Of a DNA stretch of 64,000 nt, positions 18,208 through 61,973 are shown piece after piece. Numbering within the stretch: position 1 is the stretch's first letter; each line of letters opens with the position of its first letter. Made by a program: the position numbers and the translations under genes. The notes under the pieces are model-generated. The model did not search any database. It saw only the letters and a program-made list of their open reading frames with translations, and was not told the origin of the DNA. Source of the DNA: Balanoglossus misakiensis (lineage: Eukaryota; Animalia; Hemichordata); the NCBI GenBank assembly GCA_040954595.2, contig CM082577.2, positions 15,569,903 through 15,633,902 of the forward strand, read 5' to 3'.

Positions 18208-20014
18208 AGTACAGTTCCACGTGCATTCCTGGCCCTGGTTTTATTTATGTTTACAGACAATATTGCATTTTTGTACAAGTATTTTAATCAACTATAAATT
18301 TTGAATGTGTCATTTACCTGAACCGGTCATGTTGACCAGAATGATACATTTCTGCCTTCACTCACCCTATAAATATGTGATTGAGACATAGGTCATTTGC
18401 ATAAGCTAACATACCAGAAAGTAAGCATATCTGTTGTTTTCCCTGTGTCACTGCCATCAAAGTAAAAATTAGACGTTGTGTAGAGCAAACTCCAATTTTT
18501 TGTTCTCAATAAACATGGATGAATTACATAGAATGTGTTTGTTGTTTACAGTCTTTAAATGACACATTAGATTATGCACTTTACAAAACGTTTCTGAGAA
18601 ACAAGTGACTAACTAGTTTCTTTCCACTGTGGCCAACGTGGTTCACTGTTTGTGTCAGAATCTCTCTGTTTTGCAAGGATTTTGAAATCATAGTGGTGAC
18701 ATGCATAGTGAAAATCAGCTACTTTCAAATGTCCGTCATGTTCATGCTGTAATTGAATTTTCAAAGCTGGGCTGGCGTGTTTTTTCTTATTTACATAAGT
18801 ATCACACTTTATACATGTATCTTCATGGGGTTTTTTGAGTCCCGTATTTAGGTCCTCTCTCACAATTTTACGAAATATCGTATAACTGACAGTTGTTCTT
18901 CCCAGAAGAGATTGGTTGGTTATGAACTCTCGGTGTAACTGCGATATACTGTGGGCCGGCGCCAGGTACGGTTTAAATCGAGGATTCCTGCAGTAGTGAG
19001 ATTCTACAATTCTGTGCCTGCGTACGTGTTCAGTGATATCAGTCAGCAAATTTGGATTGAGTTTCCGACGATGCCCTTTGTGTCGGCCCCTTGCATCTGG
19101 CATCAGACCAGTAAAGTTCCATGTGCATTCCTGGCCCTGGTTTTATTTATGTTTACAGACAATATTGCATTTTTGTACAAGTATTTTAATCAACTATAAA
19201 TTTTGAATGTGTCATTTACCTGAACCGGTCATGTTGACCAGAATGATACATTTCTGCCTTCACTCACCCTATAAATATGTGATTGAGACATAGGTCATTT
19301 GCATAAGCTAACATACCAGAAAGTAAGCATATCTGATGTTTTCCCTGTGTCACTGCCATCAAAGTAAAAATTAGACGTTGTGTAGAGCAAACTCCAATTT
19401 TTTGTTCTCAATAAACATGGATGAATTACATAGAATGTGTTTGTTGTTTACAGTCTTTAAATGACACATTAGATTATGCACTTTACAAAACGTTTCTGAG
19501 AAACAAGTGACTAACTAGTTTCTTTCCACTGTGGCCAACGTGGTTCACTGTTTGTGTCAGAATCTCTCTGTTTTGCAAGGATTTTGAAATCATAGTGGTG
19601 ACATGCATAGTGAAAATCAGCTACTTTCAAATGTCCGTCATGTTCATGCTGTAATTGAATTTTCAAAGCTGGGCTGGCGTGTTTTTTCTTATTTACATAA
19701 GTATCACACTTTATACATGTATCTTCATGGGGTTTTCTGAGTCCCGTATTTAGGTCCTCTCTCACAATTTTACGAAATATCGTATAACTGACAGTTGTTC
19801 TTCCCAGAAGAGATTGGTTGGTTATGAACTCTCGGTGTAACTGCGATATACTGTGGTCCGGTGCCAGGTACGGTTTAAATCGAGGATTCCTGCAGTAGTG
19901 AGATTCTACAATTCTGTGCCTGCGTACGTGTTCAGTGATATCAGTCAGCAAATTTGGATTGAGTTTCCGACGATGCCCTTTGTGTCGGCCCCTTGCATCT
20001 GGCATCAGACCAGT
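18208..20014. repeat. 902-bp direct tandem duplication of the 3' half and downstream region of the transposase N-terminal gene
   Basis: 18208-19112 matches 19110-20014 with few SNPs; ORF stops at 18609 and 19511 are 902 bp apart; the junction uses (cc)agt microhomology. Confidence 0.95.
18609..19103 (-). pseudogene. 5'-truncated duplicate of the transposase N-terminal gene (164 aa)
   Basis: Identical to the last 164 aa of 19511..20473 except PAH/PDH and LKK/LRK; produced by the 902-bp duplication. Confidence 0.75.
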
Positions 20015-20467
20015 TGAACAGTGCATCATTTTGCTTAGAACGGTTCTAGTCCGCCTCTCACTAATGCCAAATAATTTCAGGAATGCATTTTTGCAGACAG
20101 TAACCGTTTCACCGCCTTCATTCACCAGGTGATAACGAACCGATTTCTTGTGTGACTTCATCTGTATATCCATCAGTTTGTAGAGCATCAAGTTCTGTTC
20201 ATTATACACGCGACCATCAAAATATTTTCTCGTGGTGCCTAAAACATGCGTACTCCCAAGCTTCCGCATACAATTCCCTTGAACGCAGGCGCATTCCAAG
20301 GAAAGACTGTCAATATCTGGAAAAGGGCGATTTTTCCTTGGTTTTTGTCTCGGACACGTCTTTTTAGAATTCCTACGTGGCTTGTTGGCTCGAGCTGACA
20401 GTTCGGTTCTGCGTTGCTGCCACACAGGAATGGGTTCCCACGCATAAGCAACTCCCCGGCAGGCCAT
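19511..20467 (-). CDS. Sola1-like transposase, N-terminal DNA-binding/Cys-His region only
   Basis: Motifs VCKNAFLKLFGIS, DARGRH, ESHYCR, YL..HSISQLHREF, KPHEDTCIKC, HLKVA match the N-terminal half of Sola1-type transposases; accATGg start at 20467; candidate AATAAA (- strand) near 19142. Confidence 0.75.
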   Translation of the reverse strand: MACRGVAYAWEPIPVWQQRRTELSARANKPRRNSKKTCPRQKPRKNRPFPDIDSLSLECACVQGNCMRKLGSTHVLGTTRKYFDGRVYNEQNLMLYKLMDIQMKSHKKSVRYHLVNEGGETVTVCKNAFLKLFGISERRTRTVLSKMMHCSTGLMPDARGRHKGHRRKLNPNLLTDITEHVRRHRIVESHYCRNPRFKPYLAPDHSISQLHREFITNQSLLGRTTVSYTIFRKIVREDLNTGLRKPHEDTCIKCDTYVNKKKHASPALKIQLQHEHDGHLKVADFHYACHHYDFKILAKQRDSDTNSEPRWPQWKETS

Positions 20468-20514
20468 GGTCACAGCTGAAGTATTTGTTCAAGTACTGAC
20501 TGACTAAACGCGGC

Positions 20515-21648
20515 ATGGAACAAACGAACGAACGACTTCACGTTCGGAAAAAAAATCGTTGCGAGCTGTTGGGTGCATGCCTCTATAGTTGTCGGCAACC
20601 GTTCTTTTTTATTGCTAAACAATGCTGTCAGAGCATGGAAGGTGTGGTGGAAAACGAACAGAGGTTTTGTACGACCAACGATTGGATGGTGCTACATATG
20701 GACTTCCACAAGTCATTGCCGGTTCCTAAACTCAGCTCTGAAGACTTTTACTTTAAATCGAAATTGCAAATGAAGCTCCTTGGAATTTACAACGGGACAA
20801 CGGAAAAGATGCATTGTTATGTATGGACAGAGCTCGATAGCAGAAAGTCTCCCGATGAAGTTATTACCTGTCTAAATCACTTTTTTTATAACTCGGGTGT
20901 GACCAGCAGACATGCAGTTATTTACAGCGACAACTGCCGTGCCGAATTCAAGTGTGGGAAGTTAATGTTTTACTATGACTATCTGTTACGAAAGGGCGTG
21001 TTTCGACGAATTGACTATAAAACTCTTGTGGCTGGACACACGTACTCCACCTGTGACCGAGTTTTTGCGTCCATTGAAAGGCATGCAAGTCGTTTCCAGA
21101 GTATAGAGACACCTCACGATTGGACATCTGTGATTCGAGGATCTTCTCTGAATGGGAACATTGGAGTTACGGAGATGACTCACAGAGACTTTTTCAATTA
21201 TTCTGATTTCCTGAAAAATGAGTACGTTGTGCGTTATGCAGATACAAACAATGTAACTTTTTACTACCAAGCCATGCACTATTTTAATTTTGGAGAAGGA
21301 GAAAGGCTTGATACCGACGGCAACCTCAGAACATTTAGTCATGCAGATAAAGTTTGGGTGAGAACATCTCTAGATCCAAGCGAGACCCCGATTGTAGTCG
21401 ACTTTAGAAAGAAGAAGCAGAACCGGCGTTTACAAGATTGTACGCTGAACAAACTTTATCAGGAACGTCGACCACTGGCGAGCAAAGTTTGGCGGGATCT
21501 TCAGAGTTTAGCCAAAAATTACCTGTCTCCGGAGGCAATAGAATTTTATAGGAATCTACCGCTTCAGGAGAGTAGTGGCACCTCTGCAGACCCGTACGCC
21601 TTTCATGATGATGACGACGACGATGATGATGATATGGGCGGTGGTTGA
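20515..21648 (+). CDS. Sola1-like DDD transposase catalytic domain (likely start ATG 20635)
   Basis: HMDFHKSLPVPKL..FYFKSKL..GIYN..CYVWTE..EVITCL..IYSDNC..LVAGHTYSTCDRVFASIER; the three expected Asp residues are present; AATAAA overlaps the stop codon. Confidence 0.8.
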   Translation: MEQTNERLHVRKKNRCELLGACLYSCRQPFFFIAKQCCQSMEGVVENEQRFCTTNDWMVLHMDFHKSLPVPKLSSEDFYFKSKLQMKLLGIYNGTTEKMHCYVWTELDSRKSPDEVITCLNHFFYNSGVTSRHAVIYSDNCRAEFKCGKLMFYYDYLLRKGVFRRIDYKTLVAGHTYSTCDRVFASIERHASRFQSIETPHDWTSVIRGSSLNGNIGVTEMTHRDFFNYSDFLKNEYVVRYADTNNVTFYYQAMHYFNFGEGERLDTDGNLRTFSHADKVWVRTSLDPSETPIVVDFRKKKQNRRLQDCTLNKLYQERRPLASKVWRDLQSLAKNYLSPEAIEFYRNLPLQESSGTSADPYAFHDDDDDDDDDMGGG

Positions 21649-22147: not shown

Positions 22148-23485
22148 ATGGCTAGCTGGCGCAGGAAGAGACAAGGCAATGTGCGGTCTGTAATCAACGA
22201 ACGGCACCGCTCAGTTCAGTGTCCCTTTCTTCAAAAGTGGATCGGTGAGCAATTGGTATTTTCAGGTCGTTCAGAGGATGAAGTCCAGTCCAGTACTGTA
22301 TTTGAGAGCTACAAATGTTGGGTTGAAAACTATTCGTCGGCGGACAATCAAGTAATGATTATGGTTACTAAAGCTCGATTTTTCAAGGTGAGAATGATCG
22401 CATTTTTCTTTCCCCCCCCCCCCCTCCCTCCCTCCCTCCCCCAAGGGACTCGTTTTCTGTCTCTTTTAAACCTGTAACTTAACGAAAAGGAAGTTTTTCA
22501 CATATCTCTTCGTTGACACTATAGCAATTTGGAGCGCGGATGCTTCAAGAGAAGAGCGTTACCAAATCAAAGTCGGCCGGGGTTAATATTTATAGAGGTG
22601 TTCGTCTGAAAGCTGGTTCGCGAAGAATCTCAACGGGGAAACCTGAGCACAGTGTACTTCAGACCAGGGCAAGGGCATTTCTTGATGACGCCAGCGTGAC
22701 CGTTCCGATCGAGGTAAGAATGGTGTTTTGTTTGGACTAGGACAATAGAACGTTGCAATGAGTGTGTCAATGGGTGTCCAAGTGCAAACGTGGTCTGCTT
22801 CTGTCCACAAATGCCATTAATTTTTGGCAGGATTTATAAAATTGTCAATGAAGAATACAAAAATGAAAAACAACAGTTAATAGCAAACTGGTAGGATTGC
22901 AAGGGCTTGTAAAACGGTACACACTGTACCAGGAAGTTTGCAACACTAATGAAGAATGTATATGATATATTTAGGTGAGAACTGTTCGCGATCGCCGGGA
23001 CGCAGGACGGTGCGCGTTTTCGACGAGGGATATTCAAGCCTGGGACGTCGTCTGCGAATACCGGGGCACGGTTATTAGCGTTGAAGAAGCTAGTCGGCGT
23101 GATGAGCTTTACAGGGCAGAGGGGAAACGACCACGCATGTTCCATCTCTACATTGGAAAGAGACACGTTGTGTGAGTGTATCACTTAGTCGAATATATGG
23201 TCATATATTGCAAAGCATCTGTCGAAATAGAAAACGTAATATTGTCTATATTTTCCTCATTAACGCAGCATTGACGGATACGATGTCCCAGCCGGTGAAG
23301 AAAATTTAGCAGGCCTAATAAATCACAGTCAGCAGAACGCCAACTTGGTACCGGTTCGGATCGGAGAGCGCCTGGTTTTCTTTGCAACCAGGAATCTTTG
23401 TCAGGGAGTAGAGCTTTTGTATGATTACGGTGACGGGGGTGAAGAGGATTTCTTCAGTGGTTCTCAAACTTTTCCTGAAAATTAA
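22148..23485 (+). CDS. Spliced 4-exon gene: N-terminal D5/RFX-like winged helix + SET domain (SETD8/PR-Set7-like lysine methyltransferase); exons 22148-22387, 22525-22713, 22975-23171, 23269-23485
   Basis: All three GT-AG introns join in frame. The spliced product contains GRCAFSTRDIQAWDVVCEYRG, IDG, GLINHS and ELLYDYG (SET motifs). FLQKWI..VFESYKCW..KARFFKQFG..IYRGVRLK resembles a D5-type winged helix. Confidence 0.85.
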
Positions 23486-24387: not shown

Positions 24388-24753
24388 ATGGCGGCCAAGC
24401 TCAACTGCATATCAGATAATGCCAAGGAGCGTTTGAGAGGCATCCTCGCCAGAAGGAGTCGCGTTTCCGGTGACTGTGTGCTCTGGACGGGTGCAGCTTG
24501 TCGAAACGGCTATGGCTCTATTACGTTCAGAGATGAGAACACTCTAACCGCCTATGTCCATCACATTGCACTCCTAATTAACGGAGTGCAATTGGTGGGC
24601 AGGCGGTTAGAGTGTTCTCATCTTTGCAACGAAAAGCTATGCATCCGCCCAGAGCACATTGTCCAGGAAACGCGACTCCTAAACATTTCACGAAAGACGT
24701 GCTTTAAATCCCCAAAAGGGGAGTGTCACCACGATCCCAGGTGCCTAAGGTGA
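24388..24753 (+). CDS. His-Me finger (His-Cys box, I-PpoI-like zinc-binding loop) endonuclease
   Basis: CVLWTGA..GYG..YVHH..ECSHLCNEKLCIRPEHIVQE..N..R..C..C.H.P.C; TATA-like and CCAAT motifs at ~24256-24273. Confidence 0.85.
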   Translation: MAAKLNCISDNAKERLRGILARRSRVSGDCVLWTGAACRNGYGSITFRDENTLTAYVHHIALLINGVQLVGRRLECSHLCNEKLCIRPEHIVQETRLLNISRKTCFKSPKGECHHDPRCLR

Positions 24754-25731: not shown

Positions 25732-26070
25732 TTGTCAACACAGATGCCAGCATTCAAAAGGGGAGTGCCACCTGCTAAAATCAACTCATCTGCTGTTGGC
25801 CCATTTTACCTGTGGCAACTGTTCAGAGGAGACAACGTTTATTCCGTGCAAGCCAACATGCAATGTTGGGGTCTACCTGTCAACACAGATGCAAGCATTC
25901 ATGTGAGTGAGTATCAGGACTGACCTTGTATTTGCTGAATAATTCATAATGCCTATTTTAGAATTCTTAGAGGCATTTGGAGTTCATTGCCTGGTCAACC
26001 AAACTACACCCCTTAACAGCTGAAACAAAATGCGTATTGTGTTCATTCATTCATTGCATCAATATATATA
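25732..26070 (+). repeat. Single diverged homolog of the satellite unit inside the gene cassette
   Basis: Colinear blocks cacctg..aactcatctgctgt..gtggca..gaggaga..cacagatgc.agcattcat..gagtgagt..gcctatt.tagaattctta..ctggtca..ttcattcattcattgc.atcaatatat. Confidence 0.85.
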
Positions 26071-26374: not shown

Positions 26375-29300
26375 AAGTACCTTATATTTTCTGTAAAATA
26401 GACATTTAATTGGCAAGCCGTCCTGCATCAATTATTAATTGTGTACATGCACTAAAGCGCCCTCACTGCTGGGTGTGTTGTATGGTCTTTAACCCTGTTT
26501 CAAATTAGAGTACTTTCTGCAATTTCAAGACAGATCTTACGTGCCATTGGAGAGCTCCATTGACTGGTCATTCATACTGTTTTCATTCATTCATTGCGGC
26601 ATCAATATATTTTATCTATTCTAGCCAAAGAGCTTGGCACCTGTTGAAATGAACTCATCTGCTGTGGGCCAGTTTATTGGTGGCAGTTGAGCTGAGGAGA
26701 GCACCTTCCTTCCCGGCACGCCACCAAGTAAAGTTCCACGCCGCCCACCACAGATGCCAGCATTCATTCATGCGAGTGAGTGTAATTGCAAATTTGCCTA
26801 TTCTAGATCTGTAATGGAAATGGAGAAAGTACCTTATATTTTCTGTAAAATAGACATTTAATTGGCAAGCCGTCCTGCATCAATTATTAATTGTGTACAT
26901 GCACTAAAGCGCCCTCACTGCTGGGTGTGTTGTATGGTCTTTAACCCTGTTTCAAATTAGAGTACTTTCTGCAATTTCAAGACAGATCTTACGTGCCATT
27001 GGAGAGCTCCATTGACTGGTCATTCATACTGTTTTCATTCATTCATTGCGGCATCAATATATTTTATCTATTCTAGCCAAAGAGCTTGGCACCTGTTGAA
27101 ATGAACTCATCTGCTGTGGGCCAGTTTATTGGTGGCAGTTGAGCTGAGGAGAGCACCTTCCTTCCCGGCACGCCACCAAGTAAAGTTCCACGCCGCCCAC
27201 CACAGATGCCAGCATTCATTCATGCGAGTGAGTGTAATTGCAAATTTGCCTATTCTAGATCTGTAATGGAAATGGAGAAAGTACCTTATATTTTCTGTAA
27301 AATAGACATTTAATTGGCAAGCCGTCCTGCATCAATTATTAATTGTGTACATGCACTAAAGCGCCCTCACTGCTGGGTGTGTTGTATGGTCTTTAACCCT
27401 GTTTCAAATTAGAGTACTTTCTGCAATTTCAAGACAGATCTTACGTGCCATTGGAGAGCTCCATTGACTGGTCATTCATACTGTTTTCATTCATTCATTG
27501 CGGCATCAATATATTTTATCTATTCTAGCCAAAGAGCTTGGCACCTGTTGAAATGAACTCATCTGCTGTGGGCCAGTTTATTGGTGGCAGTTGAGCTGAG
27601 GAGAGCACCTTCCTTCCCGGCACGCCACCAAGTAAAGTTCCACGCCGCCCACCACAGATGCCAGCATTCATTCATGCGAGTGAGTGTAATTGCAAATTTG
27701 CCTATTCTAGATCTGTAATGGAAATGGAGAAAGTACCTTATATTTTCTGTAAAATAGACATTTAATTGGCAAGCCGTCCTGCATCAATTATTAATTGTGT
27801 ACATGCACTAAAGCGCCCTCACTGCTGGGTGTGTTGTATGGTCTTTAACCCTGTTTCAAATTAGAGTACTTTCTGCAATTTCAAGACAGATCTTACGTGC
27901 CATTGGAGAGCTCCATTGACTGGTCATTCATACTGTTTTCATTCATTCATTGCGGCATCAATATATTTTATCTATTCTAGCCAAAGAGCTTGGCACCTGT
28001 TGAAATGAACTCATCTGCTGTGGGCCAGTTTATTGGTGGCAGTTGAGCTGAGGAGAGCACCTTCTTTCCCGGCACGCCACCAAGTAAAGTTCCACGCCGC
28101 CCACCACAGATGCCAGCATTCATTCATGCGAGTGAGTGTAATTGCAAATTTGCCTATTCTAGATCTGTAATGGAAATGGAGAAAGTACCTTATATTTTCT
28201 GTAAAATAGACATTTAATTGGCAAGCCGTCCTGCATCAATTATTAATTGTGTACATGCACTAAAGCGCCCTCACTGCTGGGTGTGTTGTATGGTCTTTAA
28301 CCCTGTTTCAAATTAGAGTACTTTCTGCAATTTCAAGACAGATCTTACGTGCCATTGGAGAGCTCCATTGACTGGTCATTCATACTGTTTTCATTCATTC
28401 ATTGCGGCATCAATATATTTTATCTATTCTAGCCAAAGAGCTTGGCACCTGTTGAAATGAACTCATCTGCTGTGGGCCAGTTTATTGGTGGCAGTTGAGC
28501 TGAGGAGAGCACCTTCCTTCCCGGCACGCCACCAAGTAAAGTTCCACGCCGCCCACCACAGATGCCAGCATTCATTCATGCGAGTGAGTGTAATTGCAAA
28601 TTTGCCTATTCTAGAATTCTTACGTGCCATTGGAGAGCTCCATTGACTGGTCATTCATACTGTTTTCATTCATTCATTGCGGCATCAATATATTTTATCT
28701 ATTCTAGCCAAAGAGCTTGGCACCTGTTGAAATGAACTCATCTGCTGTGGGCCAGTTTATTGGTGGCAGTTGAGCTGAGGAGAGCACCTTCCTTCCCGGC
28801 ACGCCACCAAGTAAAGTTCCACGCCGCCCACCACAGATGCCAGCATTCATTCATGCGAGTGAGTGTAATTGCAAATTTGCCTATTCTAGATCTGTAATGG
28901 AAATGGAGAAAGTACCTTATATTTTCTGTAAAATAGACATTTAATTGGCAAGCCGTCCTGCATCAATTATTAATTGTGTACATGCACTAAAGCGCCCTCA
29001 CTGCTGGGTGTGTTGTATGGTCTTTAACCCTGTTTCAAATTAGAGTACTTTCTGCAATTTCAAGACAGATCTTACGTGCCATTGGAGAGCTCCATTGACT
29101 GGTCATTCATACTGTTTTCATTCATTCATTGCGGCATCAATATATTTTATCTATTCTAGCCAAAGAGCTTGGCACCTGTTGAAATGAACTCATCTGCTGT
29201 GGGCCAGTTTATTGGTGGCAGTTGAGCTGAGGAGAGCACCTTCTTTCCCGGCACGCCACCAAGTAAAGTTCCACGCCGCCCACCACAGATGCCAGCATTC

Positions 29301-48466: not shown

Positions 48467-48571
48467 AATTATTATACAAACTGTACTAACGTTCGCAAAT
48501 TGTGACCGCGTTCTTCTGTTTTCTCGCACGCATGGCTGGGTACTTGGTGTGCCTTTAATATCAATATATCC

Positions 48572-48844: not shown

Positions 48845-48851
48845 CCTTAAG

Positions 48852-49394: not shown

Positions 49395-49459
49395 ATTGGC
49401 ACTTATGGGTTATTTACGTCAACACGATGCACAAGCAACGTTATTAAGTTCTCATAGAT

Positions 49460-50748: not shown

Positions 50749-50884
50749 GGAAGAAACACGCAAGAAACGCATTGAGAAATAGAGGGGCCATAAAATTGTT
50801 GTCGATAGTGCTGGATAATGCAGCCTCAACACGTAGATTTTCTACAACATACAGAGAAACACTAGCTGTCGTGAATGCCACACC
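50745..50884 (+). pseudogene. Decayed duplicate of the 5' part of the 49460 gene
   Basis: KLLSIVLDNAASTRRFSTTYRETLAVVNAT vs KIVSLALDNTAPTRRFSTAYKEKLAAVNAT; aagaaacgcattga is shared in a shifted frame. Confidence 0.85.
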
Positions 50885-52073
50885 GTGGGGTACACATCCC
50901 ACAGAGGCCATCTTCAAAAGCAGTCAAATTGTAACATTCTTGTGACCCGCCTCTGCAAACGCGGATGGTTGGAAAATCTGGCTGATCAATGTATAATGCC
51001 ACACCATGACTAGGATATAACAGCGGTATTTTTACCAATCTATATGAATGACAGAGACCACACCTCGGAGTTAACGTGTCTTGTTCTAAATAGTACGTAT
51101 ATCCCGGAGCTCTGTTTTTTATATGCAAACAGGTTAGCACGCCGTAGCAATGTCGACAAAAAATAACGCTGGTGCGGTGAGCGATTGTAAACTGGACCTC
51201 TTCGCGGACATTGATCGCGCGTTTTAGTTTGGCGAGAATCAATCTATCCATGTCGTAAAAGAATTTAACCTGTCCCGCTCGGCCGTGTAGTAATAGTATC
51301 GCCTTGATAAGCCTCTTTTGCCACAGGCCTAACCGACGTATGAGACCGTTTACTGATTTTGAATTGTAATCAGTCAACTGTTGTCGAAGAAGGTGCAGGC
51401 GTGTCAAGAAGTGTCTATCGTTTGCAGATTCTCTATGGAAAGCCACGAGATTCAATGGCCAAGACCATACCATTCGCTCATAAACATGTTTGAGGGTGGT
51501 AGGTAGATGGGCGGCCGAAATCCGAGGCATCCTATTCAGAATAATTTTACATAATTGTCTATGGGTGGGTGTCCTGAGCTTGGGAATACATCGTTTCAAT
51601 TTTGCTTTGAAAGAATCAGAGTCACACGTGCTTAGATGAAGGACAGTCGAGAGTCTCTTCACCGAACAAACATTCCCTTGGTAGTTGTGGAACAATGAGC
51701 CACTCCATTGCATCGTTGGCTCGGCTAGCTTGTCATAAAAGTGGATTAACACGAGTAACCTAATCCAGTTAGGATGTTGCAGGCACCATTCAGTGGTTAA
51801 CGACAACCGTGTTATACGGTTGTGTACCCGCTGCAATATAGAAAGAATATCTGTCCATTGATTTTCTCTCACTAGATTATTTAGTCCGTGCGTGTCTTTA
51901 CAATCAATCGCAAACGTCACAAAGTCATTTACAAAATCCCTCGTATTGGGTGTCTGCACTCCGGGGAAAGTGATGCTTGCGCGATTGAAGCAAGACTGGA
52001 ATAAGTCCATACCTAATGCGCGGGGGGGAGCTAATGCGTCGATTTTATGAATGTCGTGTGTTAAATATGTCAT
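50862..52073 (-). CDS. ~400-aa protein with C-terminal multi-Cys Zn domain; resembles the herpesvirus UL49/ORF66/BFRF2 late-transcription factor pattern
   Basis: IFCRHC..RCGLCHSYRLVKIPLL..VCRGGSQEC..LCGMC after a Leu/Arg-rich helical region. The ORF is solid; the homology is tentative. Confidence 0.5.
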   Translation of the reverse strand: MTYLTHDIHKIDALAPPRALGMDLFQSCFNRASITFPGVQTPNTRDFVNDFVTFAIDCKDTHGLNNLVRENQWTDILSILQRVHNRITRLSLTTEWCLQHPNWIRLLVLIHFYDKLAEPTMQWSGSLFHNYQGNVCSVKRLSTVLHLSTCDSDSFKAKLKRCIPKLRTPTHRQLCKIILNRMPRISAAHLPTTLKHVYERMVWSWPLNLVAFHRESANDRHFLTRLHLLRQQLTDYNSKSVNGLIRRLGLWQKRLIKAILLLHGRAGQVKFFYDMDRLILAKLKRAINVREEVQFTIAHRTSVIFCRHCYGVLTCLHIKNRAPGYTYYLEQDTLTPRCGLCHSYRLVKIPLLYPSHGVALYIDQPDFPTIRVCRGGSQECYNLTAFEDGLCGMCTPRCGIHDS

Positions 52074-52378
52074 ACACAGCGTGCGTGTACAGTTCAAAGT
52101 TCCCTTATGTGAGAACAGAAATACCACAAGTAAACATGCAATGGACGTGAATACAAGAACGCTCTTTTATTCGCTCGTTCAGGTATACATTTTCTTGTTA
52201 TGTTTCAACCTCGTACAAACAAAAATACCACAAGTAAACATGCAATACCGCAAAAGAAATATTGGACGGTACGCTGGCAAACCGCCCTCTACCGGCGGAT
52301 TTAGAATTACTGTCTGAATGAGGGTAAGTGATTGTGCTTAGTTGAGTAAGTAGAGGTCTGCTATGTGTCGACGCCCTT

Positions 52379-53341
52379 TTAAATTAACTGCACCGCTAAA
52401 TATATACTCATGAATATGGAAGAACAAATACATAAAGGGTAAACTACCGACGACCACCGCCACAGGGCAGACTTGGACACATCAGGAATGACTTCAAATG
52501 TTAGGTCAACCGCCGGATCTTTGTAAGCAGCATCGCATTCTGGGGGTTCGCAACAACTTAAGTATATTGTCAACGTTGAATGATCGTCACTCGCCCAGTC
52601 TTCGACCAGACAACAAGTATAATTGTACTCGTAATAAGTGTACAAAATCTCGTGTAACATGCATAACCGTTTGTACAAATGATACGTCTCGAAAGAATCT
52701 TGCAATTTCGCAACTATCTTATAACAATGAGTCAAATGACCAACTGGGTCATCCACACTGTCGTATCTGGTGATCTGTCCATTCACACAGTTTTCGATAG
52801 TCTGGTACATGTCTGTCCCTTTCATATCTTCTTTCTCTTGACTATAATAACATGTACTCGCCCTTGCGTTGAAATCTGCTTCCAAGCGTATCACCAACCT
52901 CCTGTATAATTTTGACTTTAGAACTGTTACATCGAAGCACATACTGTAGGTTCTTTCAAACATTTTCAAAGAATAGACTAGACTTCCTATGTCACATCTG
53001 TCAACTTGTCGCTGATCGCTACTACACATTATAAAATACATGGTATACAGACCGTCTTCGTTTGCACAAAGAGAGTGATCTCTTCCCGACAACAATTTTA
53101 AATTGAACGGGTGCCGGGCCAGTCCAAATATCAAAACGTCCATTATATCACGGTCTGATACAACGTCGGTTTCCGGAAGTTTTTCAAACCAGACGGGCCA
53201 TGTTGACACGCTTAAGTTAGATTTGGCAACGTGTACATCGTCTAACATATATTCCGTGTTCGGATGTTGTTTAGATTGGGAATCACTTGAAACTGCGTCT
53301 GAAATCGCATAGGCTCTATTCGACCACGCAGGGTTGTCCAT
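52379..53341 (-). CDS. Tail-anchored membrane protein (320 aa)
   Basis: No signal peptide; single hydrophobic helix at the extreme C-terminus. Confidence 0.7.
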   Translation of the reverse strand: MDNPAWSNRAYAISDAVSSDSQSKQHPNTEYMLDDVHVAKSNLSVSTWPVWFEKLPETDVVSDRDIMDVLIFGLARHPFNLKLLSGRDHSLCANEDGLYTMYFIMCSSDQRQVDRCDIGSLVYSLKMFERTYSMCFDVTVLKSKLYRRLVIRLEADFNARASTCYYSQEKEDMKGTDMYQTIENCVNGQITRYDSVDDPVGHLTHCYKIVAKLQDSFETYHLYKRLCMLHEILYTYYEYNYTCCLVEDWASDDHSTLTIYLSCCEPPECDAAYKDPAVDLTFEVIPDVSKSALWRWSSVVYPLCICSSIFMSIYLAVQLI

Positions 53342-53540
53342 GTTGGGTTCCCCTCTTGAGAGAATGCGACCACGGCAGGTGTTACGTCACCCAACTGAAG
53401 ACCATTCACAGACATTAATAACATCAAAAGAAAAGGGGTCGTCATTGTCACCAGCATGTGTATGTGTGTTGGTAGAGTACGATTGTAGATAACGTATAAA
53501 TTAATATATGCACATTAATAATTCGGGAGGTGTTATTCTT

Positions 53541-54866
53541 TTACAGGCAACAACACAGCGATGCAAGCGGTGAACACAGGTCGTTACACAATTGTTTAGC
53601 CTTAGAAGGAAATTGTTGATGAATGTCTTTAACTATGGATTTTTCAACCACAAAATGTATAGGTTCCCTGGACGATTTTATCCCAATATCCTTTTTTTTA
53701 ATTGGTTGTAAATTGGCCATGTCCTGAGACGATGGTTTACAAGTCTTGTATGACGTCAAAGACACAACATTATCTATATGATCCAAAAGGCTACCGTTGT
53801 TGTTTTTGTGTAATATTTGTGCGTGTGCATCATCTTGCTCGAAAAGATAGAATGTTACCGACGAAGAATAAATGTCACTTTCGTGAAGATGTGCACGGTC
53901 TGGTCCGATTTCAAAATGTTTTTCGATGACTATTGCGACTCTATCATTACAGTGGTTTTTCATCGCCCTTAACACGGACGGTTGCAGTTGCTGCAGACGC
54001 AACGAATCTTTACGGCTGAAATTCCGTGGGGTCAGAGGATCATCCAAAACAGAGGTTGTGGCGGAACACATGACTGCAACGACTTGTTTTAACAGAGGCA
54101 GTAAACCGTCTTCCGGTGACATTAGGCGATGGATGTAATTTCTGTACGCAGACCGAGTGATGAATGGGTTATTCGTAGACATGCATACTTCATGAATAAA
54201 CCTCTTTATCCGCACATACAATTGATCAAACTCTATATATTTTGATTCTTGGGTGATACCAGCGATTATGTTTTTCACCAGAGCAAACAATAGTTGTAGA
54301 TGTCTTTCCAGACAACTTATTGCAAATAATGCTGAATAAAAATTGGCCGACAACCACTGTGGTGTAGATTGAATCCAGAAAGGGTCGTCAAAGTCACTGC
54401 GTGTACTCAGTCCATGGCCCGCGAAAGTTTCCACGTCCGTTCTACACTTGACAGCACGTGGTACTTGTAAATGTTTCAGCGAATTCTCGATGGTTACCTT
54501 CCATTTTCTCAACCTCGCATTGTTTATAACATCCACCGTAACGAACGAATGGCATATTCTCCGCAGTGTCCTCATTAATATTTCGTAGAAAGGGTTGTCA
54601 CTAACATACGTAACTCCGTCAAATGTCCATGAAAATACGTAGTAATCAAACCGTTCATATTGAATGTATTCCTCCCAATTCCCTTTCAACGTGTCGTCAA
54701 ATAGCGAAGTTATAAGTTCTTCATCCTCGACGTCCTTTAACAGAATGTAAACATCTCGCCTATCCCGACAAGTTCCTAAATTGATAATACTTTCCCACTC
54801 TTGACAGTTTTCTTTGCAAGGAACAGGGCCTACTATGAGTTCGGGAGGTTGTTTGACAATATCCAT
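53541..54866 (-). CDS. Hypothetical protein (~440 aa) with Cys-rich C-terminus (LCCCL)
   Basis: Long ORF; ATG at MDIVKQ. Confidence 0.75.
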   Translation of the reverse strand: MDIVKQPPELIVGPVPCKENCQEWESIINLGTCRDRRDVYILLKDVEDEELITSLFDDTLKGNWEEYIQYERFDYYVFSWTFDGVTYVSDNPFYEILMRTLRRICHSFVTVDVINNARLRKWKVTIENSLKHLQVPRAVKCRTDVETFAGHGLSTRSDFDDPFWIQSTPQWLSANFYSALFAISCLERHLQLLFALVKNIIAGITQESKYIEFDQLYVRIKRFIHEVCMSTNNPFITRSAYRNYIHRLMSPEDGLLPLLKQVVAVMCSATTSVLDDPLTPRNFSRKDSLRLQQLQPSVLRAMKNHCNDRVAIVIEKHFEIGPDRAHLHESDIYSSSVTFYLFEQDDAHAQILHKNNNGSLLDHIDNVVSLTSYKTCKPSSQDMANLQPIKKKDIGIKSSREPIHFVVEKSIVKDIHQQFPSKAKQLCNDLCSPLASLCCCL

Positions 54867-55124
54867 AGTCAATTCAAAGACTCTCAAAGCAGTCTGTTAA
54901 TGGTCTCATATTGACGCAAAGTAGAATTACGGCTATGAATAAAAGAATTACTGTTAAATTGATTGTTTTGTCCAAAACGTTTTGAATCTGATATCAACGT
55001 GACAGGCGAACCATGTCGGGCGAAACTGGCTGATATCAGTAATGTTTACAGTTGTTGCTGATTGGTTGAACCATCTTCAATCATCTGCTCACTTGCAAAA
55101 CAGAATAACAAACTGAACAGTATC

Positions 55125-55156
55125 GGGAATTTCAGAGTTTGGGTGGGAAATTTTCC
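55125..55156. promoter_or_regulatory. Paired NF-kB-like sites upstream of the A20-finger gene
   Basis: GGGAATTTCA (55125) and GGGAAATTTTCC (55145); CCAAT boxes at ~55060 and ~55321. Confidence 0.3.
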
Positions 55157-55705
55157 AACAACATTGTATTGTAGACACACAGAGACACGATTAGAACAGA
55201 ATATTGAAGGAGATTGATTATTGATGCGTGTGACATTGCAGAGGGCGTTCAGTTGACTTCAAATACACGGTAGCCACCATGCAAATTTAGTCACCGTTTC
55301 CATGGAAAGTTGAGATGAAGCCAATCACATATTTTGGCGGGGTGGCCGAATGATCGGGGAATACACTATAAAAAAAACAAGACAGTGAACACCCATGTGT
55401 TTTCTTTATTTACATACATTTAAATGCGAACTAAAGACCCCGAACCCAGATAGCCCTTCTATAGACCGGACTTTGAAACAGCCATGCCCCTAATTGTTCT
55501 GACCCTAAAAGATGTACAAGTTGGCACGTTTGTCCTTGAATTAGCTCGTGGATGACATCGACTGTAGTATCATGTCGCGAGTTCGACAGGTATGTTCACG
55601 GTGTACCTACTTAAACGAGTAGGTTTAATTAAAAGTCACCACAACGCTCAACTACTTTCTACGTAAACGATCGGCGTTCATACTGTTCGAGAAGCTATCA
55701 GCAAA

Positions 55706-56143
55706 ATGACAGAACGGGCCTCTGTTCGAAACGGACAAGTATTTTATGTGTGCACAACGCTAGACTGCGAAGCTGTCGGTTTCAAATCTCTCGATGGACT
55801 CTGTTGTAGGTGTTACGCACTGAAGGCCCCGAACCCAGATAATCCTTGTACAGACCGGACTTTGCAACAGCCACCGGGTAATGCCACCCACTGTTCTTAC
55901 CCTGCTTGTTCCAACGTCGCCGTATCGGAAAATATCCTATTATGCCGTGTATGTCTAACCATCTTAGACGAAAAGGGAAAGACACCCGGCAAAGAAAGAC
56001 GCATGTCAACAATCAAAGAATCCACCACAGAAGACAATCCCTCTGTACCCAAAACTCTGTGCAGGTTTCCGGCTTGTACCCACTTCGGCAACGAAGATTG
56101 CGTGGGATATTGTAACGAATGTTATAAAGTGTTGACGAAATAA
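55706..56143 (+). CDS. A20-type zinc-finger-only protein (3 fingers; the last resembles TNFAIP3 ZnF7)
   Basis: CTTLDC..GLCCRCY; CSYPAC..LLCRVCL; CRFPACTHFGNEDCVGYCNECY vs recalled human A20 ZnF7 [22 protein letters not shown]; intronless, no OTU domain. Confidence 0.85.
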   Translation: MTERASVRNGQVFYVCTTLDCEAVGFKSLDGLCCRCYALKAPNPDNPCTDRTLQQPPGNATHCSYPACSNVAVSENILLCRVCLTILDEKGKTPGKERRMSTIKESTTEDNPSVPKTLCRFPACTHFGNEDCVGYCNECYKVLTK

Positions 56144-56288
56144 TAGGATTTGACGCTTCCATAGTTTCGTTGTGGACACACTTGACAGCATTCAAAAACT
56201 GGCAATAAAATGACCAACATAACTAATATTTTTTTCGTCTATTGTCTTTTGTAGTAAGGTCGCAATGCTTTCCCAGCATGCACGTGTC

Positions 56289-57203
56289 TCATTTGATCCC
56301 CGTGCATGACTTGTTAAAGACATGTCTTCGACGACAGTATGTGGACTTCCCATATTTATGTGCTGTTATCTTCGGATTTAGTTTGTGAAGATGGTATTTA
56401 AGTTCGCAGTAAAATAATGCAATTTCTGATTCCATAATTTTTAGAACAGTCTTCAGTAGTGGCCAACATCTCGTTAAAACAACCACTAATATTATTCCTT
56501 TATACAAGAGAAATTCGAACACGTATTGGAGGCCAGCCACGGCGCAAATATCGGTCATGACAGTAGGGTTGCAATCTCCACGAAGTGACACCCAAAAAAG
56601 TAACTGAAGTGGGTAGTACATGACATATCTCGAAAGTGTAATACTTTTGTACCACTGCAAATCTGCACACAACCCACCGGCCCCGACACCTCTCTGTATC
56701 CAATAAATGACATCTTGCCACCAATTGCGGATGTTCGCGCAACCACCACGTGTGTTGAGAGCTGCCATGGCATCGAATATGTCCATATGCCAAGCGATTT
56801 CCGAATGAATAGGTTTTCCAGAAAAACAATGTCCTTCAAAACACCTTTTGAATTTCTCAAAACCTACGGCTAAAGGATCTATGATTCCTCTCAAATCTTT
56901 CACAATAGCGCTCAAAACAACACCTAAACCACCAGTGATTTCCTTGAACAACTTCACGAGAAACAATCCTATGATTGAAACGACAGCTGTTGCCAGCGCG
57001 ATGTACAAATATGAATTCCAAGGTGCAAATCTGTAAAGAGTCCGACATACAGCTTTTGTGAGATGCCAAGCGGAAAGCTGGTGTTTCACAGTATCCTTAT
57101 GTCTGTATATCTGAGCCTCGTACTGGTACACGACTTTATCGTCTGCCTTGTGCCCTAAAACCATGGCGCCCAGTGGTATCTCAAGATATAATATATTTAT
57201 CAC
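56289..57203 (-). CDS. Multi-pass membrane protein (304 aa), Cys-containing
   Basis: Several hydrophobic segments and an amphipathic stretch; head-to-head with terminase. Confidence 0.7.
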   Translation of the reverse strand: MINILYLEIPLGAMVLGHKADDKVVYQYEAQIYRHKDTVKHQLSAWHLTKAVCRTLYRFAPWNSYLYIALATAVVSIIGLFLVKLFKEITGGLGVVLSAIVKDLRGIIDPLAVGFEKFKRCFEGHCFSGKPIHSEIAWHMDIFDAMAALNTRGGCANIRNWWQDVIYWIQRGVGAGGLCADLQWYKSITLSRYVMYYPLQLLFWVSLRGDCNPTVMTDICAVAGLQYVFEFLLYKGIILVVVLTRCWPLLKTVLKIMESEIALFYCELKYHLHKLNPKITAHKYGKSTYCRRRHVFNKSCTGIK

Positions 57204-57236
57204 GTTATTAATGTGTAAAAATATTCTCTACCGGTC

Positions 57237-57941
57237 ATGGAGGCAGACAAGCTCAGCCCATTTGTCAGAGATGCCCAGAGAATGGACGCTCTCATTACAC
57301 AGTGTAGACAACAACAAGACCAACTTAGGGGTGTGTTTTTAAGAAAACACGCGTACAAGGAAAACTATATGTTTTCTCGCGTTGAAGACGTAGACGCGAG
57401 ACTGTCTTTAATGAAAAGGGCTATACAAACCATCCGATTGTTATGCAAGGGGAAACAATTTACGTTCGAACCTTTCCAGGAGGAGATGTGTAGGGCCATA
57501 ATGTTAAGTCGCTTACGACATTTTTTTGGTGAGGAATCTAAAAAGTTTTTCTTGCCTGTGATGAAATACCTAGGTATAATTTCAGCACACTTTGACGAGC
57601 GAACATGCGACAGAATCAACCTATCGAGAGTACGTAGCCAAATAGAAGAATATAACCATAAGTTTATCGTTGTCATGGTACCGAGACGCTCTGGTAAAAA
57701 TGCCACCGCGCAAATTATTGCCACGACACTTTTATTGTACGAACCAAATTGTTCAATCATAGTTTGGGCTCAAGACATGAACTGTGCGTTACTGAACAAA
57801 GAAGGTATATGTGAAAATCTATCGCTGCTCAAGACAATATCTGACATACCATTCGATTTTCGCGTTTCCGGGGATACGGTGACAGTCGTAAGATGTGATG
57901 GTAGTAAAGGCACTCTGCGCGTAAAGCCTAATTCGCCTAAT
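57237..57941 (+). CDS. DNA packaging terminase ATPase subunit, exon 1 (herpesvirus UL15-like)
   Basis: Q motif FEPFQ and Walker A IVVMVPRRSGKN (herpes LExFQ and VFLVPRRHGKT); phase-0 donor AAT|gtaagt after KPNSPN; Walker B and nuclease exon(s) not found in the window. Confidence 0.8.
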
Positions 57942-58518
57942 GTAAGTGTAAACACATTCCATCTACTATTATGTATTTGCATTGTATCCAGTTTACATTT
58001 TGTGTTCAATATTTATTTCATTATTGCGTACACTTGGATGGTCATCTCAATGTAGTTGTATTTGTAGAGGCCTATGGCAACTGGCCATGGCGAAAAGATA
58101 AAGGTGCCACGCTCGACACTCTATCACTATTTGATTTACGTTTGTGTATGGGTTCGAATGGCACAAAAGTCACAGGACGCAAATGTTTAGATCACAGTGT
58201 ATCATTTTATTGCGTGTCATACCGATATACAAAGTTAGTACGTACAATTAAACGCTTTCTTAAAGAGTCAGTCAGTGTACTAATCTCAAAATGTGGTCGC
58301 TATCCATTCACACATGGATCATGCTTCCTTTGTCCCAATGATCGTAAAATTCATCCCATCACACCTGTTTAGATGTGTACAAATCAGCCGTCGAGAGTTC
58401 ACAAATACTATTCTACTTAATCGCCATATAATGGTCACGAGAGGGCGCCGTCGCTTGCTGTTTTGTTAGTACAGCACAGGTCAATCAAGGTCATCTATTG
58501 TGTTCTGTCACAGTCCGT

Positions 58519-60591
58519 TCAATTGGCAAATGCGAGGCAATTCATTCTTCGCGCTTGGCTGGCACACGACACTGCGTCAGTGGGTAGTTTAAGATGATCA
58601 TATATTTCATCAAATCGACGTTTAAACGACTCTTGCATCACCGCTACATTTCTTTGGTGCATTTCCATTTGCCTGGCCTGGGACGCGACCGTCTGCGTTA
58701 ACTCATCTACTTTCGAATTGAGCTGTGCCTTATCAGACTCCAATTGGACTATGCGCATTTCTCGCTCTTTTAGCATAGCCATTACATTCTCCGCGGCTGC
58801 TGATTGCTCCCTACAGTTTTCCAACTCGGAACGGAGCGACTCGATAGCAGCTGCTTGTTCCGCACTATGTTCTTGGTGACGTGAAATGGCATTGTACAGA
58901 CAAGCGCCCTGTTTCGAGTTGAGAAACTGTACGATAGCTTGAAAGTTCTCATGACTATTCCTTGTACGGGGGCTGTCTTTCACAAATTCTTTCAATAGTT
59001 GACATTCTATAGTGGCGATCGTGATATCGCGTTCTGTTTTCTTGAGTAGGCGACTACCGACCTTTTTCGACATGCCTGATGTGATCTCGTCAACGCCGAA
59101 TACAACAGTGGCGCCTGCCAACACCGAGGACATGGCAGTGACGTAGCAACCTAACACAGTATAGCCGAATTTATCATACTGTGTGCACAAGTCGACGCGT
59201 GAAGAGTTGGAATATTGCGGTTTTGAGCGAATGATTCGGGCCACGGTGGAAACAATCGCACTATTCTGACATGGTTCGTTGTTTTGACCGGATAATCCTA
59301 ACGGACACTTGAATTTAGTTCCAGATCTGCTTTCTATCAGTTTTATTGCGATTCGTTTTGTTGGGCCAGACGATTCGATTACTTCAATGGTTGGGTTGTC
59401 CGGGATAATTGCGTCGTTAGAAACGGTTACATTTATCACTTTGCAATCTTCTAAGGGTTTCATAATCTTAAACCAATAAATTGTCGCTGGATACACTTGT
59501 TCACCAACGTGCATGTAGTACAAATTGTTCTTTAATTGTGGGGGCAATTTATCGCAATCTCCATACAGCACAGGCATCCCAACCACAGCCGCGGCAGAAT
59601 TTATGTCATCCTCTGTCGACAGTTGAATCAAAGGAGGGGTTTTCGAGTCCAAGAAATCGCATACATAATTCTTGTTCCGTTTACAGTCTTTCATTCGCTT
59701 GCGCTTGGCAGTTACCGAAGTATTGTCTCCCAACAGCGAAAACTGATCGTTTCCACATTGCACAGTAATAAGGTTCCAGGCCTCTTTCGGAGATAGCACG
59801 TGATAATGCCCGTCTTTCATTAAAGCGATGCACGGAAAATCATTGCTTTGACCTTTCTGTAACATGTATGATATAGGTGTTCTGATTGCGTCGTGAAACT
59901 CTTTCATACAGTCATTATCGCTTGTGTATAATGACAGAATAGCACCAAAATTGCCGCGAATGGTCAAATGGCGTTCCGCGTCGTTCGATTGGTCTGGTAT
60001 TAAATCCTGAGTATAAGACATCGGACTTTGTGCGTCGAGCGGGGGGTGAATTTCAGCGGCAGATGCGCGAATTTCCTCTGGAACTTGATAACTGGTGCAT
60101 GGATGAGAAACTGCAGTGGCATTCTCTGACGGCCCCGGGTTATATTGTTCAGTGTGGTTGTCGGATCCACCGTGCCGGTCCGCGTGATAGAACGGAGAAG
60201 AGTCTATCGAACTGGGTTCATTATGGACTAAGAATTCGGTCGTTGCCTCTGTGGCATTCACGCTCGGGGCCTGACGGGTATGATCTGATACGCCTAGCAA
60301 CAAATCTATGATGTTTGGAGACTCGTTCACCATTTCGGCCGAAAAATCTTGTTCAATATCGTCTCCAAATAAAAAGTCTTGGACGGTGGTATAAGGCTCA
60401 TCGCTCGATATATCAGGAGCCATTTCTACATCACAAGCCTGTATGACAAAAAATGAGGAAATGTATTAACAGTTGTGCGAAGACACAGTGGGTTAACAAA
60501 CAAAATGCGTTTAATGTGTATATGTACTCACGGGAATTTGAACCTGTCGGAGTACCGTCTGTAGAAAATCACTATAATCGGTTTGAGCCAT
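58519..60591 (-). CDS. ~659-aa protein, 2 exons (60591-60532; 60438-58519): disordered N-terminus, GMPVL..WFK domain, C-terminal coiled coil
   Basis: Exon 1 MAQTDYSDFLQTVLRQVQIP|gtgagt splices at catacag in frame with ATG 60423. Confidence 0.75.
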
Positions 60592-61000
60592 CTTCAATAA
60601 TAAGCTGTACTCGTGGTTGACGTTCGCTTTATACATGTGCAACGTGTGTTCACATCAACATGCATGGGTTAAATTCATGTATGTTGTTGTGTATCCATCC
60701 CAGTTTACGTGTAGGCCGTCGCGATCACGTGACAAAATACGAGGTCATTATTACCACCACAAGCTACATATAAGCTGCCGTGACCACGTTATGTGTATGT
60801 ATTTGTATGTATAAATTACTTCATGTACGTGATGTGTAACTATAAAGGTGATGTAGTTACATCGAGACACCATCTTAGTACACACACACTGCACAACTTG
60901 CATAAAATGTAGTTCATACACGTATACAAGCACGGTGTTTTGTATCAAAAATAGTTTAATAACAGCTATTCTACAATGACTTTAACAACCACTGTAAGTA

Positions 61001-61889
61001 TCATTCTGTCAAGTTCATTTTTTCGTCTAGGCCAGGGACCATCTTACACATTTCGGATAATGCTAGAGCTAATATTCTGTTTTCCAGTTCTATATTGGAT
61101 ATTTTATCTATGGGGTTGTTTTCAAAATCTGTAACGCTTTCGTCATCATGCAACAACAATTTGAACCACAAAATAATCGCTACGTATGAGTCACCTTCGA
61201 AATTGATGACGGATATTGAGTCATTTGCATAATCAGATATATCACATAGTACCGGCATTCCAAACTTCGCATACAACCACCTGTTGGATCCTTCAACAAA
61301 ACGGTCTGTTTTAAGTCTGGGTGTCTGTTCTACAAAATTACCTAACGCACGTGGGTTTGTAGTTAACCCAAGTTCACGAAGGATATCATGGCTATTTTGC
61401 AAAACCATGGATTCTACCGCGTCTAAATAATGCATGGCTTGTACACTGCCATCTTCCCTTAGGAAAAGGGTTGAACACCTATCAACACCAGGAGTAGCTA
61501 AAGCTTCCAGCGAAACAGTACACGCACTGGGGACTGATTGCCAAACTCCTCCACGTTGTTTATAAAAAGCTATGTATTCTTTGAAACACGACCCGTGTGC
61601 TTGTATCGTTTTTATTTTATTTAACAGTATCATTGGATGGTGATTTTGCGACCTCCGGTGTGTTGATTGGTGAACATCCTCAGAGACGACCTAAACAGTT
61701 GCATTGATAGAGAGGAAGATAGAAAGAGTGGTTTAGTGGAAAGTAATATTTAGTCAAATGTTGGCAACCCGATTTACATGTAGAATGACATGTACGTACC
61801 TCAGTTGTATTTTCAGTAGATATATCCCGGGATGAATCGTCGGGTTCATGAATAGGCGTTTCCGTATGTTGTTCTTGGATCACACGAAC
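61001..61889 (-). CDS. Paralog of the GMPVL..WFK domain; exons 61889-61800 and 61690-61001, first exon not located
   Basis: Acceptors ttttgtag and tgtttag and donor gtacgt join in frame with ATG 61633; FGMPVL..FEGDSYVAIILWFKLL vs VGMPVL..VGEQVYPATIYWFKIM. Confidence 0.7.
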
Positions 61890-61973
61890 CTACAAAAAAA
61901 CAAACAAAAGTGTAACATTTTTAACATTGCTTGGGACCACTCCGCTTAATGGTTAGCACACACACACACAATC

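What the first reader, a model, noticed from the sequence alone, without database searches (positions are those of the whole stretch)
18221..61900. Possible Teratorn-like fusion: herpes-like virus genes joined by a repeat array to a DNA-transposase module
Seen: the transposase cassette and a virus-like gene block are linked by the satellite arm with no recognisable host gene in between. Known: Teratorn is a piggyBac-alloherpesvirus fusion in fish that integrates using its transposase. Inference: this may be an independent invertebrate analog using Sola1, with the array acting as a viral internal or terminal reiteration.
Basis: inference. Interest (0 to 1): 0.8.

Follow-up and report, generated by a model that had tools for sequence, protein, structure and literature searches.

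The report
Composite transposon abutting a herpes-like provirus
A real herpes-like virus sits in this animal genome right next to a repeat-flanked jumping element, but the element's own end lies between the two and its DNA is about five times as abundant as the virus, so it likely jumped into or beside the virus rather than being fused with it as in the fish element Teratorn.

Summary
The layout is real: transposase cassette (18221-26374), 12 kb of pure repeat array, then 19 virus-like ORFs. The virus is confirmed by a terminase exon 1 whose model matches HSV-1 pUL15 (Z 14.4) and alloherpesvirus terminases. The array is not a viral reiteration. It is built of a 177-bp module with its own inverted ends plus a ~274-bp spacer, lies on both sides of the cassette, and stops exactly on a module end (38429) followed by an (AT)n tract. 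No module occurs in the 25.6 kb beyond. Contig depth of the cassette is about five times that of the virus (one sample). So the virus lies outside this element's right end, and most cassette copies cannot be paired with it. Best reading (0.68): a composite Sola1-like transposon with a split transposase, SET and His-Me genes inserted into or beside an endogenous herpes-like virus. A Teratorn-like unit with a second copy at the far viral end is not excluded (0.2).

The parts
1..18220 (+). Left repeat array of the transposon (177-bp inverted-repeat module plus ~274-bp spacer); runs off the window, so the element's left end is not seen
   Evidence: 97% covered
17668..18095 (.). Unrelated foldback element (199-bp arms, 98% complementary, TA on both sides) nested in the left array
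   Evidence: (I1)
18208..19112 (-). 902-bp tandem duplication of the 3' part of the N-half transposase gene; holds a 164-aa partial ORF (18609-19103)
   Evidence: 99.3% identity; about twice the depth and a back-joint in run X1
19511..20467 (-). N-terminal half of a Sola1-like transposase, 318 aa, open frame (identity recalled from motifs; no library hit)
20515..21648 (+). C-terminal (predicted catalytic) half, 377 aa, head-to-head with the N-half, 47 bp between the first ATGs
   Evidence: DUF7869 E 1.3e-14; Atlas 0.94 to DUF7869 clusters; X1 contig 19985-20555 spans the head-to-head joint at depth 753.5
22148..23485 (+). Spliced SET-domain gene (four exons inferred from frames and GT/AG sites)
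   Evidence: SET hits E 1.7e-4 and 1.6e-7 on two exons; splice sites
24388..24753 (+). His-Me finger (His-Cys box) endonuclease ORF, itself an imperfect palindrome
   Evidence: PF05551 E 2e-13; 24454-24680 self-inverted at 71%
25766..26067 (+). Diverged copy of the array spacer inside the cassette
   Evidence: 71-86% identity; tandem joints of this variant in contigs
26375..38429 (+). Right repeat array of the transposon (the 'satellite arm')
   Evidence: 99.4% module plus spacer; X1 and X2 contigs run from the cassette into it
38253..38429 (+). Last complete 177-bp module; inferred right terminus of the transposon
   Evidence: 41 of 42 module right ends continue into spacer, only this one into an AT tract; shares a variant with the 3 modules before it
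38430..38454 (.). (AT)n tract starting ATAT; inferred target site
   Evidence: fits the AWWT preference given for Sola1 in PMC3845634
38483..38711 (+). 3.4 copies of a 68-bp repeat upstream of the first viral ORF
38763..61633 (.). Herpes-like viral gene block, 19 ORFs on both strands, 74% coding
   Evidence: X1 contig depth 128-151 over 38467-50050
41368..42846 (+). Conserved 492-aa viral ORF; portal-like by eye only, not confirmed
   Evidence: 53% identity over 98% to P0028; model pLDDT 38; best fold hit Allo37, E 5.6e-3, TM 0.09
48571..48799 (+). LINE-like 3' fragment (label recalled from a cysteine-histidine motif) between two TATATC copies, inside the viral block
   Evidence: diverged copies with other flanks in X1 and X3; no Pfam hit
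57237..57941 (+). Exon 1 of a herpes-type terminase ATPase subunit; GT donor at 57942; exon 2 not in the window
   Evidence: 23 relatives; shared end point; HSV-1 pUL15 Z 14.4, rmsd 3.4, 171 aligned; BFVD top hits allo- and orthoherpesviruses

Best explanation
A repeat-flanked, multicopy element carrying a split Sola1-like transposase, a SET gene and a His-Me nuclease ends at position 38429 in an AT tract beside a herpes-like gene block, and it likely got there by ordinary cut-and-paste insertion into or next to an already integrated virus. Shown: the anatomy, the terminus, the herpes-type terminase and the depth excess. Inferred: the two transposase halves would act together on the outermost module ends and insert at ATAT; the arrays would grow by unequal exchange; the virus would have integrated independently and is a target, not cargo.
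For: The array ends on a complete inverted-repeat module followed by ATAT; 41 of 42 module right ends continue into spacer and only the last meets the AT tract. The same array flanks the cassette on the left and has a diverged copy within it. No module or spacer in 38430-64000. In run X1, 7 of 8 listed cassette contigs have depth 693-808 (the eighth, the duplicated stretch, 1564.5), against 128-151 for the 5 listed contigs that follow the unique viral sequence (the 3 others lie on repeated bits): about 5:1. In X2 the lowest cassette contigs are 1255 and 1979 against 319-485. An X1 contig shows a module left end in another AT-rich flank (loose end at 38263). The virus has a second AT tract of its own (44444-44463) and holds a LINE-like insert, so it takes insertions. 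Three unchecked notes of this scan describe the same element at 16-25 kb on other pieces, one in an (AT)n tract.
Against: Depth is from contigs of one sample, which may be the source of the assembly, and the tool warns that it is no copy number; single-copy depth was not measured. The left end of the element and the far end of the virus are outside the window, so no target-site pair was seen. The virus may itself be multicopy (4 places where the window differs from the whole-depth X1 contig; minor contigs at depth 24-55), and what multiplied it is unexplained. The one X1 contig at the junction (129 letters, depth 137.2) is compatible with every viral copy carrying the element end, though its 43 letters over the AT tract were not aligned. 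The Teratorn model expects transposon copies at the viral ends, which would look like this from one side.
Confidence: 0.68

Rival explanations
1. Teratorn-like composite: the virus is bracketed by two copies or end arrays of the element and is moved as one unit by the split transposase, while most element copies also move alone.
For: Every module has both inverted ends, so any outer pair could in principle be used. The review's model starts with a transposon jumping into the viral genome and says most Teratorn-like viruses carry piggyBac at their termini. The virus may be multicopy and nearly uniform. Its ORFs look open where testable. A preprint reports mobility genes in deep-branching endogenous Herpesvirales. 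The junction contig has viral depth.
Against: About 5:1 depth excess of the cassette. No module in the 25.6 kb of the window beyond the junction. The element has its own complete end before the virus. The one related viral contig (L002, 5.8 kb) has no match to the three cassette proteins tested (both transposase halves and His-Me), but it is short. Activity of the split transposase is untested.
Confidence: 0.2
2. The array and cassette are native parts of the viral genome (a viral repeat region), and the extra cassette depth comes from truncated viral derivatives.
For: Similar GC (41.3% cassette, 42.1% virus). Herpesviruses carry long repeats (established knowledge).
Against: The array ends on a transposon-like terminus in an AT tract; a sister spacer variant is joined to the same cassette end in contigs; the element is noted on three other pieces with no virus mentioned (unchecked).
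Confidence: 0.06
3. The join is an assembly artefact: near-identical arrays from different loci were merged, or a free virus was scaffolded in.
For: The 12-kb array is about 99% uniform and shared by many copies; no contig was shown to bridge 38421-38466.
Against: The last four modules share a private variant, as in a real array end; X1 contigs at viral depth cross both borders of the LINE-like insert; the piece continues for at least 1.39 Mb with other elements. A merge inside the array would still leave an array end against the virus.
Confidence: 0.06

Closest known systems
Teratorn and Teratorn-like herpesviruses of teleosts (PMC10175614, Introduction parts 1-4 of 5 read; PMC5601938, passages)
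   Same: A cut-and-paste transposase gene next to herpes-like genes in a chromosome; the layout matches the first step of the published fusion model.
   Different: No piggyBac, no CCYT ends or TTAA site; the virus is outside this element's right end; cassette and virus differ about fivefold in depth; no co-phylogeny shown.
KolobokP composite-like DNA transposons (PMC9587614, parts 1-2 of 6 read)
   Same: [quoted passage not shown]
   Different: Transposase is DUF7869/Sola1-like and split in two divergent ORFs; extra SET gene; flanks are long arrays of a 177-bp module that begins CT and ends AG, not single 450- or 660-bp repeats with RR..YY ends.
Integrated herpes-like viruses of invertebrates: amphioxus virus (PMC2994540, passages), BelcheriHV-1 (PMC12373286, passages), starfish and ribbon-worm regions (bioRxiv 10.1101/2025.04.19.649669, passages and section 11)
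   Same: Dense block of mostly intronless ORFs (74% coding here, 70-73% for BelcheriHV-1) in repeat-rich chromosomal DNA.
   Different: The terminase here has an intron at a place shared by its relatives, whereas mollusc and amphioxus viruses lack terminase introns. Whether it belongs with the starfish and ribbon-worm lineages was not testable.
Sola1 DNA transposons (features from PMC3845634, passages; protein motifs recalled)
   Same: Motif order of the two halves as recalled for Sola1; right flank ATAT fits the AWWT target.
   Different: Transposase in two head-to-head genes; cargo genes; terminal arrays.

Membership tests
Teratorn | piggyBac transposase, CCYT ends, TTAA duplication | tested here: not met
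   DUF7869 protein; module ends CTG..CAG, flank ATAT
Teratorn | Herpesvirus genes adjacent to the transposase | tested here: met
   Terminase exon 1; only array in between
Teratorn | Whole virus enclosed by transposon ends with a target duplication | tested here: inconclusive
   This element's right end precedes the virus and no module follows within 25.6 kb; far end outside the window; no genome held
Teratorn | Transposase and virus behave as one unit (matching copy number) | tested here: not met
   About 5:1 contig depth in X1, at least about 3:1 in X2; one sample; excess solo copies would not exclude a fused subset
Teratorn | Full alloherpesvirus core gene set and placement in Alloherpesviridae | not testable with these tools
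   Only one core gene identified in the window; 14-18% identity to the top three structural hits; no reference sequences for a tree
Teratorn | Active transposase | not testable with these tools
   Both halves are open frames; activity needs an assay
Herpesvirales | Herpes-type terminase ATPase subunit | tested here: met
   HSV-1 pUL15 Z 14.4 against 8.7 for T4 gp17; 14 of the 17 BFVD hits at E<=0.001 are named herpesvirus proteins
Herpesvirales | HK97-type capsid protein, portal, family B polymerase | tested here: inconclusive
   None identified in the window; portal candidate gave a pLDDT 38 model
Malacoherpesviridae | Intronless terminase gene (PMC2994540) | tested here: not met
   Homology stops at a GT donor; V236 invariant in 23 of 23 aligned rows; splicing itself not shown by RNA
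Sola1 | Sola1-type DDD transposase | tested here: inconclusive
   DUF7869; no named Sola1 reference was available; assignment recalled from motifs
Sola1 | 4-bp AWWT target duplication | tested here: inconclusive
   Right flank ATAT fits; left end outside the window
KolobokP | Direct terminal repeats with own inverted ends, plus His-Me nuclease | tested here: met
KolobokP | Kolobok transposase with RR..YY ends | tested here: not met
   Module begins CT and ends AG; DUF7869 protein

The most novel reading that the evidence does not exclude
An invertebrate herpes-like virus of an undescribed, intron-bearing-terminase lineage has been captured between end arrays of a composite Sola1-like transposon with a two-gene transposase and spreads in the germ line as one unit: a second, independent origin of the Teratorn way of life, outside fish and without piggyBac.
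Probability: 0.2. Interest if true: 0.85.

Novelty: new member of a known kind. Interest (0 to 1): 0.52.

Why it matters
Even without fusion, this is a deeply divergent herpes-like provirus (15-19% identity to HSV-1 terminase by structure) in what earlier notes call a likely acorn worm, with a spliced terminase unlike mollusc and lancelet viruses. The locus also shows a composite DNA transposon end against herpes-like DNA, the proposed first step of Teratorn formation; the 2023 review said transposon insertion into herpesvirus genomes had not been reported. One look at the two unseen ends would decide whether the second step happened here.

Tried and rejected
No whole genome is held, so flanks could not be read. 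Word-based searches found no relative of the terminase among longer proteins and none of the transposase C-half at 167-534 aa; both are weak blanks. Six scans of viral contigs: four protein scans found no relative, one found only an unrelated phage contig (L001), and the module end pattern had 0 matches. Of two metagenome scans, one found nothing and one found L002. Sequence searches of the PDB were blank or chance for the terminase, the 492-aa ORF, the C-half and an L002 ORF; the family profile ranked HSV-1 pUL15 first but only at E 0.12. Pfam did not recognise the terminase family. The portal label was not confirmed; Allo37 is listed as of unknown function. No telomere-type repeat doublets in the window. 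No RNA holder listed; run X3 has contigs over 38790-39900 and 40504-40815 but is not on record as RNA, so no claim of expression is made. One of 23 terminase hits (P0020, 8 short stretches) was left out of the alignment. Literature searches found no report of a Sola-herpesvirus fusion or a split Sola transposase; Rosani et al. 2023 on invertebrate herpesviruses is not held, and the bioRxiv supplements, which I could not see, may already cover this viral lineage and its mobility genes. No complex prediction was run for the two transposase halves.
Full report
Observation. The window is eukaryotic DNA. Positions 1-18220 and 26375-38429 are one repeat array. A single 177-bp module and a single 274-bp spacer cover 97% of the left part and 99.4% of the right part at 90% identity or more, all on one strand, and 0% of 38430-64000. 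Between the arrays lies an 8-kb cassette. Right of 38429 lie 19 ORFs of 124-634 aa on both strands, covering 74% of 38430-61900.

The viral block is herpes-like. ORF 57237-58055 has a PRRSGK Walker A motif and only a weak PHROG terminase hit (E 0.0012). A full HMMER scan found 23 relatives at E up to 0.001, the best at 67% and 58% identity. None of the 19 that I looked up carries an informative name. I aligned 22 of the 23. Homology ends at the same column in all rows (V236 invariant), where the window has a GTAAGT donor at 57942, so this is likely exon 1 of a spliced gene. The model (pLDDT 87) matches HSV-1 pUL15 at Z 14.4, rmsd 3.4 over 171 residues, well above T4 gp17 at 8.7. In BFVD the top hits are Ranid herpesvirus 3, white sturgeon herpesvirus 2 and Ranid herpesvirus 2 proteins, then HSV-1 UL15. 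The match ends at pUL15 residue 345, close to where I recall the HSV-1 intron lies. Mollusc and amphioxus herpesviruses lack terminase introns (PMC2994540, passages), so this virus is not of that type. A second ORF (41368-42846) has a 53% identical relative over 98% of its length, but the portal label failed to confirm (pLDDT 38). The other 17 ORFs got library scans only and have no strong hit. A 229-bp LINE-like fragment between two TATATC copies sits at 48571-48799 (label recalled). The index places other findings 1.2 and 1.39 Mb further along the same piece, so the block is in a long scaffold. Earlier notes call the host a likely acorn worm; I did not test that.

The cassette is a transposon interior. 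It has a DUF7869 ORF (20515-21648, E 1.3e-14; Atlas 0.94) and, head-to-head 47 bp away, a 318-aa ORF whose motifs I recall as the N-terminal half of Sola1 transposases. It also has a spliced SET gene and a His-Me endonuclease (E 2e-13). The Sola1 label rests on recall; no named reference was available.

The array belongs to the transposon. The module has imperfect inverted ends (28 bp, 82%), begins CTG and ends CAG. All 40 complete copies have AT on both sides. Of 42 module right ends, 41 continue into spacer; the last, at 38429, is followed by ATATAG and an AT run. The last four modules share a private variant, so the terminal module grew out of this array. ATAT fits the AWWT target given for Sola1 (PMC3845634, passages). 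The cassette holds an older spacer copy (25766-26067), and contigs show that variant in tandem and joined to the cassette's left end, which points to sister elements. One X1 contig shows a module left end in a different AT-rich flank. The design parallels KolobokP (PMC9587614, parts 1-2 of 6) with another transposase. I had noted this parallel before seeing three unchecked notes that describe the same element at 16-25 kb on other pieces of this genome, one inserted in an (AT)n tract. No note on a herpes-like virus was returned.

Depth. Three runs of one sample hold the DNA, one possibly the source. All are contigs, and the tool warns that depth is no copy number. In X1, 7 of 8 listed cassette contigs have depth 693-808 and the duplicated stretch 1564.5. 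Five of 8 listed contigs on the viral stretch follow unique sequence and have 128-151; the other three lie on repeated bits. The ratio is about 5. In X2 the lowest cassette contigs are 1255 and 1979, others 2482-6676, against 319-485 for the virus. Only 38262-50050 of the viral block was laid. Minor X1 contigs at 24-28 and 52-55 may mark one and two copies, which would give roughly 5 viral and 29 cassette copies per diploid genome; that baseline is a guess. The window differs from the whole-depth X1 contig at 4 viral places and at 5 cassette places, as expected for one copy among several or for alleles.

Against my reading. The left end of the element and the far end of the virus are outside the window, and no genome is held. 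The junction contig (129 letters, depth 137.2) was aligned only from its 44th letter. If collinear, it starts six letters inside the module end, which would fit all viral copies carrying the element; a contig leaving a long AT run would start at the same place, so this does not decide. The Teratorn review proposes that fusion began with a transposon jumping into the viral genome and says most such viruses carry piggyBac at their termini (PMC10175614). One side of such a unit would look like this locus. [quoted passage not shown]

Mechanism. Shown: anatomy, terminus, terminase fold, depth excess. Inferred: the two transposase halves work together on the outermost module ends and insert at ATAT; arrays expand by unequal exchange; the virus integrated on its own and was hit at an AT tract, of which it has a second at 44444-44463. 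I give this 0.68, a Teratorn-like composite 0.2, a native viral repeat region 0.06 and an assembly artefact 0.06.

Verdict. It is not a Teratorn member (no piggyBac features) and is not shown to work like one. It is a new member of the known class of integrated invertebrate herpes-like viruses (PMC2994540; PMC12373286, passages), from a divergent lineage, abutted by an unusual composite transposon that this scan had already noted elsewhere. Searches for a Sola-herpesvirus fusion or a split Sola transposase found nothing relevant. Interest 0.52.

Noticed in passing
window 19511-21648: Sola1-like transposase split into two open, head-to-head ORFs 47 bp apart; the majority contig has the same layout, so it is not a one-copy accident.
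   Followed up: partly
window 26612-26780 and every spacer copy; variant at 25650-25910: Each spacer has a strong AG acceptor and a GTGAGT donor around about 150 non-coding bases, as if the array were repeated non-coding exons downstream of the His-Me gene, which ends on a donor site (read by eye).
   Followed up: no
window 3106-17405: Higher-order period of 7243 bp in the order of 265/274/275/452-bp units of the left array.
   Followed up: no
window 17668-18095: A 428-bp near-perfect foldback element with TA on both sides is nested in the array.
   Followed up: no
window 47870-48652: Viral ORF with a weak SLATT-domain hit (E 2.8e-5, below the curated cut-off), a two-helix membrane effector type known from defence systems.
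   Followed up: partly
window 55706-56143: Viral ORF with three cysteine clusters and an A20-like zinc finger (E 2.9e-4); a partial duplicate lies at 55427-55484.
   Followed up: no
window 49460-50883: Coiled-coil ORF (Snf7-like by recall only, no hit) followed by 5.1 copies of a 135-bp repeat and a decayed partial duplicate of its start.
   Followed up: no
window 61975-64000: 126-bp direct repeat, a C run, a diverged 270-bp repeat pair and an interrupted minus-strand frame (62986-63554); unclear whether this is the viral end or host DNA.
   Followed up: partly
L002 24-5770: Relative of the terminase exon (59% identity) next to a primase-like ORF and a 1208+ aa P-loop ORF (labels recalled; only a weak AAA hit); gene neighbours differ from the window.
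   Followed up: partly
window 38483-38711 and 21980-22060: The 68-bp repeats before the first viral ORF and the region before the SET gene both carry a TTACGTCAT (CRE-like, recalled) motif.
   Followed up: no
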